Part shown: positions 1 through 3,000 of the stretch, one piece after another | Layout of the letters: each line of letters opens with the position of its first letter | How positions within the stretch are numbered: position 1 is the first letter of the stretch | Origin: a virus | Taxonomy: Duplodnaviria > Heunggongvirae > Uroviricota > Caudoviricetes | Length of the DNA stretch: 8,563 nt | Direction: 5' to 3' (one strand) | IMG/VR virus record: IMGVR_UViG_2529292904_000011 | Coordinates: 1-8,563 of that record | Position numbers: made by a program

Positions 1-3000
1 TCGACACAAAAAAGACCTGCTTATCTCGGTGGGTGATTTGGTTGATCGCGGTACAGAGAACGTCGAATGCCTGGAATTAATCACATTCCCCTGGTTCAGA
101 GCTGTACGTGGAAACCATGAGCAAATGATGATTGATGGCTTGTCAGAGCGTGGAAACGTCAATCACTGGCTGCTTAATGGCGGCGGCTGGTTCTTTAATC
201 TCGATTACGACCAAGAAATTCTGGTTAAAGCACTTGCTTATAAAGCAGATGAACTTCCATTAATCATCGAACTGGTGAGCAAAGATAAAAAATATGTCAT
301 CTGTCACGCCGATTATCCTTGTGACGAATACGAGTTTGGAAAGCCAGTTGATAATCAGCAGGTAATCTGGAATCGCGAACGAATCAGCAACTCACAAGAC
401 GGGATCGTGAAAGAAATCAAAGGCGCGGACACGTTCATCCTTGGTCATACGCCAGCAGTGAAACCACTCAAATTTGCCAACCAGATGTATATCGATACTG
501 GCGCAGTGTTCTGCGGAAACCTCACATTGATTCAGGTACAGGGAGAAGTCGCATGGGTATAAGAGAACTAAACCTCACCAAAGAACAGCACGATTGGCTG
601 AATGGCTGGCTTGAACTGTGGGGCGCATGGGTTTATTCAGGTCGTCTGGAAAAGCGCATGAGCAGCGTAATAGCGAAGTTCATGGAGAGCGTAGAGCCGG
701 GAAGAATTATGACAAGGCCAATGTGCAATGATGATGATGGAATGTTGATTTCTCAGGTCGTCGATTCCGTCATGTGCATTGACAAGAAAGCCTTTGGCAT
801 CCTCCTCAGCTACTACGCTCATGGTTCATCTAAGCGAGCAATTGCATCCTACTATCACGCGACTGCAAAGCCACGCAAGATGTGTGGACGTGGTGGCGAG
901 GGATGGAGAAAACCTTCACTGGCAACCTGTAGAAATGAAATTGACGACATCCTGAAAGCATCATTATTTGTTTTGTACCAACCAATGCAAAATGCTTTCA
1001 AAATGCGTAAACGTGTTGAGAAAGTTAAACACATTGCTGTTAAAAGTCTTGACATGCAATTATCCATTTGGCCATAATTAGAAGGTAAGCTGCCGTTAGT
1101 GACTCTTAAGTTGCAACGGTGGCTTTTTTTATTTGGGTCAGTCGTATAAAGGTCATTACGGAAGGCTGTTAACCTTCTTATCGTGGTTCGAGTCCACGCT
1201 GTCCCGCCAAACATGCTGGTTTAGCTCCAATGGTAGAGCAACTGACTTGTAATCATCAGGTCGCCAGTTCGATTCCGGTAGTCGGCACCATATGCGGGTA
1301 TCATATAATGGCTATTACCTCAGCCTTCCAGGCTGATGATGCGGGTTCGATTCCCGCTACCCGCTCCAGATTTATTATCAGTCTCGCTTCGGCGGGCTTT
1401 TTTCATATCTGCGCCACGTTCGGTGCATATCAACCATAAAGCTTTTCAGGGACGGGGTTACGGGATAGTCAGTGTGACTTTATCCGTAGGCTGGTTACCC
1501 ACTGGCGCAGGCTCTGCAGTTACCGCTGGGGCAGTACCTGTGGAAAGTGCACGCTTTGGGCTGACTGTCATCATGTTGTTTCTGGTGGTGGCAGTGGATT
1601 TCACCGGGCGTCTGATGTCGGTACTGGCTGATGGTGTGATGAAGCGTGGGATTGTGACATTACGGTGGTCGGTGATGAAAAGAAACAGTCTGAATAATGC
1701 TTGATTTTTTTACTTACTGTTTATTAGAAATACTGCCGTATAGCGAATCCCATGTGTAAGAGGTTATCAGCAGGCTGGAATACTGGGGGGCGCGGATTCA
1801 GGTGCTGATACTGAATTCACCGGGGCGGCCACCGGACCATGCATATATCAAAGTTGTGATTCTACTTATCATTTTCCTTGTGAGTTTTGGCTGCGCATGG
1901 CGCGGCCTTTTTTTACGATCTGCCACTGGCAGATGCTCATCCTGTGATTTTCTTCTGTTTCGGCCTTTTTTACTCTATTCCTGTGCATGGGAGAAATTCG
2001 ATGTCGATTAATCGTTACGATATTGTGCGGGCAGCATCGCCATCAGATCTGGCGGACAAGCTCACGCAAAAACTGAAAGAAGGCTGGCAGCCGTTTGGTA
2101 GCCCTGTGGCCATAACTCCTTATACCCTGATGCAGGCGATTGCAGCAGAAGGTGATGTGGTGGTCAGTGGCACAACTGAGCCGGAGTGGTACTACGTGGT
2201 CGTGCTGGCCGGACAGTCCAATGCCATGTCTTATGGTGAGGGTATTCCTCTTCCTGATTCATATGATGCGCCTGATCCGCGTATTAAGCAGTTGGCACGT
2301 CGCAGTACGGTGACGCCTGGCGGAGAGGCATGTGTATTTAACGATGTGATCCCGGCAGATCATTGTCTGCATGATGTGCAGGATATGAGTGTGTTCAGTC
2401 ACCCTGAAGCAGATTTAAGCAAAGGTCAGTATGGGTGTGTCGGACAGGGCTTACATATCGCCAAACGTCTGCTGCCGTATATCCCAAAAAATGCCGGGAT
2501 TCTGCTGGTTCCCTGCTCCCGTGGCGGTTCAGCATTTACAGCAGGGGCGGATGGTACATTCAGTGAAGCTACGGGGGCCAGCCAGAACTCTGCGCGCTGG
2601 GGAGTGGGTAAGCCGTTATATCAGGATCTGATACTGCGTACAAAAGCGGCACTGGCGAAGAATCCTGAAAATGTTCTGCTGGCGGTATGCTGGATGCAGG
2701 GTGAATTCGATATGACAAACGCTGGCTATGCTCAGCAGCCTGCAGCATTCCAGTCGATGGTGCAGCAGTTCCGTAGCGACCTTGCCGGTATGGCGGCGCA
2801 GTGTCATGGTGGAAGCGCTCAAAAAGTGCCGTGGATTTGTGGTGACACCACATACATCTGGAAACAGAAGTACGCCACACAATATGAGGCGGTGTATGGC
2901 GCTTATAAAGGAAAGGAAGCACAGAATATTTTCTTTGTTCCTTTTATGACAGGTGGCAGTGGTGAAAACACGCCCACGAATGAGCCGACGGAAGATCCGG

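What the first reader, a model, noticed from the sequence alone, without database searches (positions are those of the whole stretch)
1135..1368. Late-region tRNA cluster is Asn/Thr/Gly rather than the Ile/Arg set I recall from Stx phages; the Thr copy looks degenerate
Manual folding gives anticodons GTT, TGT and TCC. The Gly tRNA is nearly identical to host glyT as recalled, and the first tRNA shares the unusual glyT-like D arm. That suggests the cluster was captured or duplicated from host tRNA genes and then diverged. The middle tRNA has mismatches in the anticodon and T stems, so it may be non-functional or may rely on unusual pairing. Thr-ACA and Gly-GGA are relatively rare codons in the host and might be enriched in the late genes.
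Basis: partly seen in the sequence, partly recalled or inferred. Interest (0 to 1): 0.4.

Follow-up and report, generated by a model that had tools for sequence, protein, structure and literature searches.

The report
Recombinant prophage tRNA cassette, hybrid tRNA-Thr
Three tRNA genes (Asn, Thr, Gly) sit at the start of a lambda-like prophage's late operon, and the odd-looking middle one is a hybrid of a phage 21 tRNA-Thr and a host-like tRNA-Thr whose stem mismatches match a published signature of resistance to a tRNA-cutting anti-phage nuclease.

Summary
Window 1135-1209 is tRNA-Asn(GUU), 1215-1290 is tRNA-Thr(UGU) and 1294-1368 is tRNA-Gly(UCC). All three pass Rfam's tRNA threshold; ARAGORN calls the Thr gene only at a relaxed threshold.

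The cassette is a recombinant. Window 1086-1240 (late leader and terminator, Asn, first 26 nt of Thr) is 100% identical to phage 21. The last 50 nt of Thr, a TAT spacer and Gly come from a common prophage Thr-Gly cassette whose genes are (near-)identical to host thrU and glyT. The crossover lies in a shared 9-nt GGTAGAGCA.

The "degeneracy" has three separate causes:
- The hybrid join leaves three G·U pairs in the acceptor stem.
- The T-stem A52·C62 mismatch is native to host thrU.
- The two anticodon-stem mismatches (G42U, U43C) are a recurrent allele, also present in intact non-hybrid phage tRNA-Thr genes and never seen singly.

That double change alters the CNG motif and shortens the stem. 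Govande et al. 2025 showed these two features together make phage tRNA-Thr, including phage 21's, resistant to the P2 Old nuclease.

Codon enrichment is modest for Thr and Gly and absent for Asn. Function of the hybrid is untested. I rate it a new variant of a known kind, of moderate interest.

The parts
553..1077 (+). Antiterminator Q gene of the phage 21 Q family. The N-terminal two thirds are near-identical to Q of phage 21. The C-terminal third is divergent.
   Evidence: Pfam PF06530 Phage_antitermQ, E 2.1e-25. Alignment A5 with phage 21, JLK-2012 and L096.
1049..1078 (+). Late promoter pR'-like site, TTGACA-18-CATAAT. The Q-binding region between the hexamers differs from that of phage 21.
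   Evidence: Consensus scan gives 11 of 12 matches. The position corresponds to the annotated pR' of phage 21.
1087..1134 (+). Late leader and terminator tR', 100% identical to phage 21. tRNA-Asn begins directly after its T-run.
   Evidence: Phage 21 record annotates a terminator at L002 2488-2535, which maps to window 1087-1134. Identity from window 1086 onward is shown.
1135..1209 (+). tRNA-Asn(GUU), phage 21/Sf6 type, with encoded CCA, discriminator G73 and a U4·U69 mismatch. Anticodon arm is GAAGG/CUGUUAA/CCUUC.
   Evidence: ARAGORN. Rfam 55.3 bits. 100% identical to phage 21 and BTP1. Arm table.
1215..1290 (+). Hybrid tRNA-Thr(UGU). Anticodon at 1248-1250. Encoded CCA.
   Evidence: Rfam 47.0 bits. 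ARAGORN calls it only at the relaxed threshold. Alignments A1, A3 and A4.
1215..1240 (+). 5' segment of Thr (nt 1-26), identical to phage 21 tRNA-Thr.
   Evidence: Alignments A1 and A3. Megablast identity of 100% over window 1100-1240.
1232..1240 (+). Crossover interval GGTAGAGCA (tRNA nt 18-26). This is the only long stretch shared by the two parental Thr genes between their diagnostic differences.
   Evidence: Alignment A3. Phage 21 states run through nt 17 and thrU-type states begin at nt 27.
1241..1290 (+). 3' segment of Thr (nt 27-76), of thrU type. It differs from K-12 thrU only at G42U, U43C and A49G.
   Evidence: Alignment A3. The nearest non-hybrid relative is L142, which differs only at A49G.
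1256..1257 (+). G42U and U43C. They produce the C28·U42 and A27·C43 mismatches and change C40-A41-G42 to C-A-U. This is the recurrent 'TCATC' allele.
   Evidence: The determinants of P2 Old resistance are taken from PMC12445682.
1291..1293 (+). TAT spacer typical of prophage Thr-Gly cassettes.
   Evidence: 117 of 123 Thr-Gly adjacencies in IMG/VR have TAT.
1294..1368 (+). tRNA-Gly(UCC), glyT-like (71/75 identical), with encoded CCA. C6U and G67A are compensatory. G10A breaks the G10-C25 pair. A38G lies in the anticodon loop.
   Evidence: ARAGORN. Rfam 53.7 bits against 64.9 for glyT. Alignment A2. Allele table.
1383..1403 (+). Terminator-like hairpin CTCGC-TTCG-GCGGG followed by a T-run, just after the cassette.
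   Evidence: Consensus scan. The hairpin is conserved in JLK-2012-type loci.

Best explanation
**What it is (shown).** Window 1135-1368 is a three-gene tRNA cassette at the head of the late operon of a lambdoid prophage. It follows a phage 21-family Q gene, the late promoter pR' and the terminator tR'.

**Expression (inferred).** By position, the tRNAs should be made only when Q lets RNA polymerase read through tR', that is, during lytic growth.

**How it arose (shown).** The cassette is a recombinant of two known cassette types.
- The left part (leader/terminator, tRNA-Asn, first 26 nt of tRNA-Thr) is the phage 21/Sf6-type Asn-Thr cassette.
- The right part (last 50 nt of tRNA-Thr, TAT spacer, tRNA-Gly) is the widespread prophage Thr-Gly cassette made of near-copies of host thrU and glyT.
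- The join lies inside the Thr gene, in the 9 nt GGTAGAGCA that both parents share.

**Why the Thr gene looks degenerate (shown).**
- The hybrid join pairs a phage 21 5' acceptor strand with a thrU 3' strand. All seven pairs survive, but three become G·U.
- The T-stem A52·C62 mismatch is inherited from thrU.
- The two anticodon-stem mismatches (G42U, U43C) were already present in the right-hand parent.

**Most likely function (inferred from published determinants, untested here).** The cassette supplies replacement tRNAs that survive tRNA-cutting defence nucleases.
- P2 Old kills lambda-infected cells by cutting host tRNA-ThrU after C28 and after C40. Resistance needs both an altered CNG motif and a shortened anticodon stem. 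Phage 21 tRNA-Thr has both features and rescues cells.
- The window's Thr arm has CAG changed to CAU and loses the 27-43 and 28-42 pairs, so it carries both features.
- The phage Asn also lacks both CNG motifs, and it differs from host Asn at positions 39 and 41 of the PARIS AriB site.

**Open point.** The weakened acceptor stem may make the hybrid Thr less active than either parent. Extra supply for ACA/ACG and GGA/GGG codons is a plausible secondary benefit.
For: **Recombinant origin**
- Window 1100-1240 is 100% identical to phage 21. Alignments A1, A3 and A4 show phage 21 states through tRNA nt 17 and thrU states from nt 27.
- The Thr gene of phage vB_EcoS-683R6 is identical to K-12 thrU.
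- Among 123 IMG/VR Thr-Gly adjacencies, 95 have Thr identical to thrU, 52 have Gly identical to glyT, and 117 have the TAT spacer.
- A 'clean' hybrid exists in L096: phage 21 5' part joined to an exact thrU 3' part. ARAGORN calls it, and Rfam scores it 58.6 bits.
- A second fusion inside tRNA genes exists. In strain SCU-104, Asn and Gly are joined at the T-loop GGTTCGA.

**The mismatches are not random decay**
- A scan for position 42 not G found 24 loci, and every one has C43 (23 TC, 1 CC). A scan for G42 with position 43 not T found none.
- The TCATC arm occurs in at least 7 non-hybrid IMG/VR loci with intact acceptor stems. They lie in several different flanking and cassette contexts: Thr-Gly, Met-Thr-Arg-Gly and Met-...-Thr-Arg-Gly. 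ARAGORN calls them at default, and Rfam scores are 60.8-63.6 bits.
- The same arm is in E. coli M19 and TUM9757, each with its own additional private change.
- The JLK-2012 sublineage has T68C, which restores a G5-C68 pair.
- Chromosomal tRNA-Thr(UGU) genes of several phyla naturally carry a 28·42 mismatch.

**Link to defence nucleases (published)**
- P2 Old specificity, its two-factor resistance and rescue by phage 21 tRNA-Thr come from PMC12445682.
- PARIS AriB cuts Lys(UUU), Thr(UGU) and Asn(GUU) at U36-A-A-U-C|A41 (PMC12409363).
- The arm table here shows phage Asn UAACC|U against host UAAUC|C, phage 21 Thr UAAGC|G, and cassette Lys UAAGU|U.

**Late-operon position**
-. The same location is described for phages L and Sf6 in PMC8022706.
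Against: - No expression, processing, charging or cleavage data exist for this hybrid.
- ARAGORN misses it at default, and NCBI annotation omits it in the six genomes with the exact sequence.
- Its Rfam score is 47.0, against 73.8 for thrU and 61.5 for phage 21 Thr.
- Its cloverleaf is predicted at -8.7 kcal/mol, against -19.8 for a competing non-cloverleaf fold. thrU gives -21.5 against -22.8.
- The 5' CNG motif (C28-U29-G30) is intact, and the AriB site UAAUC|A is host-like.
- In the published work a CNG change alone or stem shortening alone did not protect. This exact combination was not tested.
- Most prophage copies of Thr are host-identical, and host thrU gave little or no protection. 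Defence evasion therefore cannot explain the Thr-Gly cassettes in general.
- The neighbouring Gly gene carries changes at conserved core positions, which looks like relaxed constraint: G10A here, U8C in JLK-2012, and A38G in both.
- The prophage in this window has an IS element inside its large terminase gene.
- The TCATC arm could be a single old allele spread by recombination rather than repeated selection.
Confidence: 0.55

Rival explanations
1. The middle gene is a dead by-product of recombination. The join between two different tRNA-Thr genes produced a misfolding RNA that is no longer under selection. It survives only as a spacer between Asn and Gly, and this part of the cassette is decaying.
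For: - ARAGORN does not call it at default, and NCBI annotation omits it.
- Rfam gives 47.0 bits, the lowest of the allele series.
- The predicted cloverleaf is 11 kcal/mol less stable than the best alternative fold.
- Gly carries G10A and A38G here, U8C in the JLK-2012 type, and further changes in single loci.
- A deletion variant that removes Thr altogether exists in strains SCU-104 and PM4-5.
- The prophage in the window has an IS3-family element in its large terminase gene.
Against: - The anticodon-stem mismatches predate the hybrid. They are kept in intact, confidently called tRNA-Thr genes in several contexts, and always as a pair.
- All seven acceptor pairs remain standard or G·U pairs. 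The ThrRS identity elements known from the literature (G1-C72, C2-G71, G35, U36) are retained (and the sequence).
- The one further change in the JLK-2012 sublineage restores a Watson-Crick pair. By my count about 14 of 228 possible single substitutions would do so.
- The D arm with C14 is the same as in phage 21 tRNA-Thr, which is functional (PMC12445682).
Confidence: 0.3
2. The cassette exists mainly to supplement codons. The phage carries extra tRNAs for codons that its late genes use more than the host does, and the sequence oddities are neutral.
For: - Window late genes against a 52-gene K-12 sample: ACA+ACG 38.5 against 23.3 per 1000 (p 2.6e-4), and GGA+GGG 33.7 against 17.7 per 1000 (p 2.2e-5).
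- JLK-2012 late genes show similar ratios of 1.49x and 1.89x.
- Most prophage Thr-Gly cassettes are exact copies of thrU and glyT, which fits a dosage effect.
- PMC8022706 argues the same for the Asn tRNA of phage L.
Against: - Asn codons are not enriched: 0.87x in the window and 0.91x in JLK-2012 late genes.
- The most skewed codons, AGA/AGG (4.45x) and ATA (3.12x), have no tRNA in this cluster.
- ACA alone is not significantly enriched in JLK-2012 late genes (p 0.15).
- This explanation does not account for a paired, recurrent substitution that weakens the anticodon stem.
- The host sample is only 52 genes of K-12, not the true host.
Confidence: 0.25

Closest known systems
Phage 21 / Sf6 / BTP1 late-operon tRNA-Asn and tRNA-Thr pair, including tRNA-Thr21 of Govande et al. 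2025
   Same: - Same position directly after the Q21-family pR'/tR'.
- The leader, Asn and the first 26 nt of Thr are 100% identical.
- The UGU anticodon, a shortened anticodon stem and an altered CNG motif are shared in kind.
   Different: - The last 50 nt of Thr are thrU-like, not phage 21-like.
- A third gene, Gly, follows.
- The anticodon arm reaches a short stem with an altered CNG motif through different bases: G42U and U43C, rather than U28/C29...G41/A42/A43.
- The acceptor stem has three G·U pairs.
Prophage Thr(UGU)-TAT-Gly(UCC) cassettes, also found as Met-Lys-Thr-Gly and similar. Examples: phages vB_EcoS-683R6, phi467 and SerU-LTIIb, and IMG/VR locus L142
   Same: - The 3' 50 nt of Thr, the TAT spacer and Gly are of this type.
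- L142 shares the TCATC arm and the Gly allele with T6/A67.
   Different: - Those cassettes have the full thrU 5' half and a perfect acceptor stem.
- They follow other Q genes or other tRNAs.
- They lack the Asn gene.
Host operon thrU-tyrU-glyT-thrT
   Same: Gly is 71/75 identical to glyT. Thr nt 27-76 are 47/50 identical to thrU.
   Different: - tyrU and the spacers around it are absent.
- The Thr 5' part is not thrU.
- Expression comes from a phage late promoter.
Phage T5 tRNA-Lys/Thr/Asn variants that neutralise PARIS AriB (Belukhina et al. 2025), and anticodon-loop escape variants (van den Berg et al. 2023)
   Same: The same isoacceptors occur, Thr(UGU) and Asn(GUU). The substitutions lie at or next to the nuclease cut site in the anticodon arm.
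   Different: - This is a temperate lambdoid prophage, not a virulent phage with a large tRNA set.
- There is no Lys gene.
- The hybrid Thr keeps the host UAAUC|A site.
- Nothing has been tested.
Stx-phage tRNA set ileZ-argN-argO
   Same: The same genomic niche, between Q and the lysis genes in lambdoid prophages of the same strains.
   Different: The isoacceptors differ (Ile and Arg). Those serve the strongly skewed ATA and AGA/AGG codons.

Membership tests
Bacterial tRNA gene (Rfam RF00005) | Scores above the curated gathering threshold with a full-length cloverleaf alignment | tested here: met
   Asn 55.3, Thr 47.0 and Gly 53.7 bits against a threshold of 29. All three match model positions 1-71.
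Bacterial tRNA gene (Rfam RF00005) | Called by a dedicated tRNA finder at default stringency | tested here: inconclusive
   ARAGORN at default calls Asn and Gly but not Thr. At the 95% threshold it calls Thr(tgt) at 1215-1290. tRNAscan-SE was not available. NCBI annotation omits Thr in exact-match genomes and includes it in the T68C variant.
Bacterial tRNA gene (Rfam RF00005) | All four stems formed by standard pairs | tested here: not met
   Thr has A27·C43, C28·U42 and A52·C62, plus four G·U pairs. The last mismatch is also in host thrU.
Phage 21/Sf6-type late-operon Asn-Thr cassette | Lies directly after the Q21-family late promoter and terminator, with an identical tRNA-Asn | tested here: met
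   Window 1086-1209 is 100% identical to phage 21.
Phage 21/Sf6-type late-operon Asn-Thr cassette | Second gene is the phage 21-type tRNA-Thr over its whole length | tested here: not met
   Only nt 1-26 match. Nt 27-76 are thrU-type.
Prophage thrU/glyT-derived Thr-Gly cassette | thrU-like Thr, a 3-nt TAT spacer, and glyT-like Gly | tested here: met
   This holds for Thr nt 27-76, the spacer and Gly. The Thr 5' part does not belong to this cassette type.
Nuclease-resistant phage tRNA-Thr(UGU) (P2 Old escape, PMC12445682) | UGU anticodon | tested here: met
   TGT at 1248-1250.
Nuclease-resistant phage tRNA-Thr(UGU) (P2 Old escape, PMC12445682) | [quoted passage not shown] | tested here: met
   The 3' strand changes from C40-A41-G42 to C-A-U. 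C28 of the intact 5' CUG is left unpaired. This particular change was not among the published mutants.
Nuclease-resistant phage tRNA-Thr(UGU) (P2 Old escape, PMC12445682) | Shortened anticodon stem through loss of the 27-43 pair | tested here: met
   A27·C43 and C28·U42 leave three pairs in the stem.
Nuclease-resistant phage tRNA-Thr(UGU) (P2 Old escape, PMC12445682) | Resists cleavage and rescues cells from P2 Old | not testable with these tools
   This needs the plasmid rescue and in vitro cleavage assays of PMC12445682.
PARIS AriB-resistant tRNA variants (PMC12409363) | Substitution at positions 39 or 41 of the U36-A-A-U39-C40|A41 site | tested here: met
   Met for Asn, which has UAACC|U against host UAAUC|C. 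Not met for the hybrid Thr, which keeps UAAUC|A. Actual resistance was not tested.

The most novel reading that the evidence does not exclude
The paired G42U/U43C change is a naturally selected, portable escape allele of a host-derived thrU copy. It makes tRNA-Thr(UGU) resistant to Old-type, and perhaps PARIS-type, Toprim nucleases. Temperate lambdoid phages would then shuffle such alleles by recombining inside tRNA genes, so that the tRNA cassettes at the head of late operons act as small counter-defence islands. On this reading the hybrid Thr in this window is a working member of that set, alongside a resistant Asn.
Probability: 0.3. Interest if true: 0.65.

Novelty: new variant of a known kind. 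Interest (0 to 1): 0.45.

Why it matters
**Annotation.** Genome pipelines drop or flag tRNA genes with stem mismatches. NCBI annotation omits this gene in the exact-match genomes and omits the M19-type allele. If the mismatches are the functional point of the allele, escape from anticodon-stem nucleases, these pipelines are discarding counter-defence genes.

**Phage biology.** The result extends a 2025 experimental finding, that phage 21 tRNA-Thr resists P2 Old, to natural variation in prophages of pathogenic E. coli O55:H7 and E. albertii. It also supplies ready-made natural alleles for testing the two-factor resistance rule: exact thrU, the TCATC allele, the clean hybrid, and the hybrid carrying TCATC.

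**Genome evolution.** It gives clear examples of mosaic joints that fall inside tRNA genes at conserved tRNA motifs only 7-9 nt long.

Tried and rejected
- **Post-recombination origin of the 42/43 change.** I first thought GT to TC arose after the hybrid formed, as either decay or re-acquired resistance. I rejected this when the scan for position 42 not G found the same TCATC arm in non-hybrid genes.
- **Biased first survey.** My first IMG/VR pattern allowed variation only at positions 42, 43, 49 and 68, which biased what it could find. I repeated the survey with exclusion codes at positions 42, 43, 40 and 28. The last two found only distant environmental tRNAs.
- **Genome scan too loose.** Most hits were unrelated bacterial tRNA-Thr genes with a covarying position 27 or 28. 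Two things were useful: the E. albertii hit, and the observation that 28·42 mismatches occur naturally.
- **Supplementary tables not held.** The supplementary tables of PMC12445682 are not in the library. I could not check whether a TCATC-type tRNA or tRNA-Gly(UCC) was in their screen or substrate list.
- **Faulty Gly calculation.** My hand-written cloverleaf string for Gly was one character short, so those energies are void and I do not use them.
- **Direct derivation from the host operon.** Deleting tyrU from thrU-tyrU-glyT would give the spacer as T+AT, which matches TAT. By my estimate three bases would match by chance about 6% of the time, so this is only a hint.
- **Source of the window.** No complete E. 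coli genome or phage record covers the whole window.
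Full report
**1. The observation**

ARAGORN at default settings calls tRNA-Asn(gtt) at 1135-1209 and tRNA-Gly(tcc) at 1294-1368, and nothing between them. Rfam's tRNA model finds three full-length matches above its 29-bit threshold:
- 1135-1206, 55.3 bits
- 1215-1287, 47.0 bits
- 1294-1365, 53.7 bits

With its threshold lowered to 95%, ARAGORN calls tRNA-Thr(tgt) at 1215-1290. All three genes encode CCA.

**2. Context**

- The cassette follows an antiterminator Q gene at 553-1077 (Pfam PF06530).
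- A near-consensus late promoter lies at 1049-1078.
- A leader and terminator at 1087-1134 match the annotated tR' of phage 21 exactly.
- tRNA-Asn starts directly after the terminator's T-run.
- A hairpin with a T-run at 1383-1403 follows Gly.
- Downstream lie a DUF3927 gene, a DUF1737/SASA/DUF6645 esterase (the nanS-p type), holin, lysozyme, spanin, PerC, an HNH gene and terminase genes.

The 321 bases around the cluster are 100% identical in six complete genomes: five O55:H7 strains, including CB9615 and RM12579, plus strain 2013C-4465. They are about 97.5-97.8% identical in six more genomes and in phage JLK-2012. The window as a whole is not in the complete E. coli set. Positions 1-6540 are 98.4% identical to the O55:H7 prophage.

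**3. The cassette is a recombinant**

*The two halves.* Window 1086-1240 is identical to phage 21. This covers the leader, Asn, the 5-nt spacer and the first 26 nt of Thr. From tRNA position 27 onward, the Thr gene instead follows the Thr of phage vB_EcoS-683R6. That gene is base-for-base identical to K-12 thrU.

*The join.* The two parental Thr genes differ at positions 3, 5, 6 and 14-17, and again from position 27. They share GGTAGAGCA at positions 18-26. The crossover therefore lies in window 1232-1240.

Together with the loci already fetched and the window, these gave 123 Thr-Gly adjacencies:
- 95 have Thr identical to thrU.
- 52 have Gly identical to glyT.
- 117 have the 3-nt spacer TAT.

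The commonest arrangements are Thr-Gly and Met-Lys-Thr-Gly. The host operon is thrU-tyrU-glyT-thrT, so the phage cassettes lack tyrU.

*Related fusions.* One locus, L096, holds a clean hybrid: the phage 21 5' part joined to an exact thrU 3' part, with Asn upstream. ARAGORN calls this one. In strain SCU-104, Asn and Gly are fused at the T-loop GGTTCGA and Thr is deleted. tRNA genes therefore serve repeatedly as joints between mosaic modules.

**4. Three separate causes of the "degenerate" look**

*(a) Acceptor stem.* GCUGGUU from phage 21 now faces AGUCGGC from thrU. All seven pairs survive, but U3·G70, G5·U68 and U6·G67 are wobble pairs.

*(b) T stem.* A52·C62 is present in host thrU itself.

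*(c) Anticodon stem.* G42U and U43C give C28·U42 and A27·C43.

Rfam scores fall stepwise across the allele series:

| Allele | Rfam bits |
|---|---|
| thrU | 73.8 |
| Non-hybrid TCATC allele | 63.6 and 60.8 |
| Phage 21 Thr | 61.5 |
| Clean hybrid (L096) | 58.6 |
| JLK-2012 type | 49.0 |
| Window | 47.0 |

Predicted cloverleaf energies:

| Allele | kcal/mol |
|---|---|
| thrU | -21.5 |
| Non-hybrid TCATC | -17.0 |
| Clean hybrid | -12.9 |
| JLK-2012 type | -14.3 |
| Window | -8.7 |

For the window allele, a competing fold is predicted at -19.8 kcal/mol.

**5. The anticodon-stem mismatches are a recurrent allele**

I first assumed GT to TC arose after the hybrid formed. Scans that exclude the canonical base showed otherwise:
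- Position 42 not G gave 24 IMG/VR loci, and every one has C43 (23 TC, 1 CC).
- G42 with position 43 not T gave none.

At least seven of these loci are not hybrids. They have the full thrU 5' half and a perfect acceptor stem. ARAGORN calls them at default. They sit in different cassettes: Thr-Gly with two different flanks, Met-Thr-Arg(UCU)-Gly, and Met-...-Thr-Arg(CCG)-Gly. E. coli M19 and TUM9757 carry the same arm, each with its own private change elsewhere.

Locus L142 is the closest relative of the window's right half. Its Thr 3' half differs only at A49G, and its Gly differs at G10A and A38G. The right-hand parent therefore already had TCATC.

These scans required exact matches elsewhere in the arm, and the count of canonical alleles is a lower bound.

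**6. What the allele may do**

*Published work on P2 Old.* Govande et al. 2025 (PMC12445682) showed the following:
- P2 Old kills by cutting host tRNA-ThrU after C28 and after C40, within paired CNG motifs.
- Phage tRNA-Thr(UGU) genes rescue cells. Phage 21's does so by name.
- Overexpressed thrU does not rescue.
- Resistance needs two things together: an altered CNG motif and a shortened anticodon stem. Either alone is not enough.

*How the window allele compares.* The TCATC arm changes C40-A41-G42 to C-A-U and removes the 28-42 and 27-43 pairs. It therefore has both features, reached through bases different from those in the published variants. That a double change is present and single changes are absent fits the two-factor rule.

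*Published work on PARIS.* Belukhina et al. 2025 (PMC12409363) showed that PARIS AriB cuts Lys(UUU), Thr(UGU) and Asn(GUU) at U36-A-A-U-C|A41. Changes at positions 39 and 41 block cutting.

*Arm comparison here.*
- Phage Asn has UAACC|U against host UAAUC|C, and lacks CNG on both strands.
- Phage 21 Thr has UAAGC|G.
- The cassette Lys has UAAGU|U.
- The hybrid Thr keeps the host site UAAUC|A.

These are predictions from sequence. Nothing was tested here.

**7. Evidence against function**

- The window's Gly has G10A, which breaks G10-C25, and A38G.
- The JLK-2012 sublineage has U8C instead, plus A38G. Single loci add more changes. These positions are highly conserved in tRNAs, so this part of the cassette may be under relaxed constraint.
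- The prophage in the window carries an IS3-family element in its large terminase gene. The CB9615 copy, however, has an intact terminase.
- Most prophage Thr copies are host-identical. That fits dosage rather than escape.

**8. Codon usage**

Compared with 52 K-12 genes, the window's nine late genes use codons as follows:

| Codons | Ratio to host sample | p |
|---|---|---|
| ACA+ACG | 1.68x | 2.6e-4 |
| GGA+GGG | 1.93x | 2.2e-5 |
| Asn codons | 0.87x | not significant |
| AGA/AGG | 4.45x | 9.6e-7 |
| ATA | 3.12x | 4.3e-5 |

The last two groups are more skewed, yet the cluster has no tRNA for them. JLK-2012 late genes behave alike. Codon supplementation is therefore possible for Thr and Gly, does not hold for Asn, and is not specific.

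**9. Comparison with what is known**

- tRNA genes at the head of the late operon are described for phages L, Sf6 and 21 (PMC8022706; PMC9119081).
- The Asn/Thr/Gly trio is already annotated in phage JLK-2012.
- I found no description of three points: the hybrid origin of the Thr gene, the identification of its right half with a TCATC-type thrU copy, and the match of that allele to the Old-resistance rule.

**10. Verdict**

The cluster is real and ordinary in kind. The hybrid origin is well supported (about 0.9). The counter-defence reading of the mismatches is plausible but untested (about 0.4-0.5). Whether the hybrid itself works is open. I rate it a new variant of a known kind, with interest 0.45.

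Noticed in passing
window 8144-8563 (Rfam isrC hit at 8212-8334); large terminase ORF at 7788-8159: The large terminase gene stops after about 120 codons. From 8144 the sequence is 99.8% identical to the left end of an IS3-like ISEc31 element in CB9615. The strong Rfam 'isrC' match (150 bits) lies on the 5' end of the IS transposase orfA, so here it marks an IS element rather than a free-standing sRNA gene. This prophage copy looks unable to package DNA.
   Followed up: partly
L130 (E. coli SCU-104, NZ_CP053284.1), about locus 1536-1660; the same match in strain PM4-5: The 5' part of tRNA-Asn is fused to the 3' end of tRNA-Gly at the shared T-loop GGTTCGA. Thr and most of Gly are deleted. Nothing is annotated there. 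This is a second example of recombination inside tRNA genes of this cassette.
   Followed up: partly
window about 830-1085, compared with L002 (phage 21), L001 (JLK-2012) and L096: The C-terminal third of Q and the Q-binding region of the late promoter differ from phage 21 in the window. They are phage 21-like in JLK-2012 and L096. The leader, terminator and Asn are identical in all four. There is therefore also a mosaic joint just upstream of the transcribed leader.
   Followed up: partly
window 1294-1368 (Gly): position 10 = 1303, position 38 = 1331: All hybrid-lineage Gly genes carry A38G, which could pair with C32. None of the more than 110 other cassette copies has it. The window type adds G10A, and the JLK-2012 type adds U8C instead. 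Host glyT has paired CNG motifs (CAG/CUG) and A37, so by the published consensus it could be a P2 Old substrate. I found no data on that.
   Followed up: partly
IMG/VR loci such as L007, L035 and L093 (Met-Lys-Thr-Gly cassettes): The cassette tRNA-Lys(UUU) has arm UCAAC/GUUGA with U36-A-A-G-U|U, where the host has UAAUC|A. It therefore differs at positions 39, 40 and 41 of the PARIS AriB site. Lys, Thr and Asn, the three AriB targets, are also the recurrent members of lambdoid late-operon cassettes.
   Followed up: partly
NC_013941.1 locus tags G2583_RS01580/RS01590 (L004); NZ_CP010221.1 RG63_RS11980/RS11970 (L153): In both records the unannotated Thr gene sits where one locus-tag number is skipped. 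This suggests the gene was once annotated and later dropped, or is held as a pseudogene.
   Followed up: no
Genome-contig loci L155-L274, for example L159, L161 and L209: Chromosomal tRNA-Thr(UGU) genes of Lentisphaerae, Victivallales, Verrucomicrobia, Treponema and Acidimicrobiia often carry a 28·42 mismatch (C·U, U·U or U·C) with a paired 27-43. A mismatch at that position is therefore compatible with a normal tRNA-Thr.
   Followed up: no
L231 (Escherichia albertii NBRC 107761, NZ_BBMY01000174.1), identical in length to IMG/VR locus L146: The exact window-type hybrid Thr allele also occurs in E. albertii, so the cassette is not confined to E. coli O55:H7.
   Followed up: no
L275 (jumbo phage BF17, Asteriusvirus) 301-454: Two adjacent tRNA-Thr(UGU) genes. 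One is thrU-identical apart from its 3' end. The other has arm AUCGC/GCGAU, with altered CNG motifs similar to phage 21 Thr.
   Followed up: no
L001 (JLK-2012) 5095-5267: A Rfam STnc100 sRNA match (107 bits) lies between tciB and the esterase gene. The window gave no such match at the gathering threshold.
   Followed up: no
window 1282-1309: A sigma-70-like site, TCGGCA-16-TATAAT (10 of 12 matches), spans the Thr/Gly junction. The TATAAT is simply the glyT-type D arm, so this is probably not a promoter.
   Followed up: no
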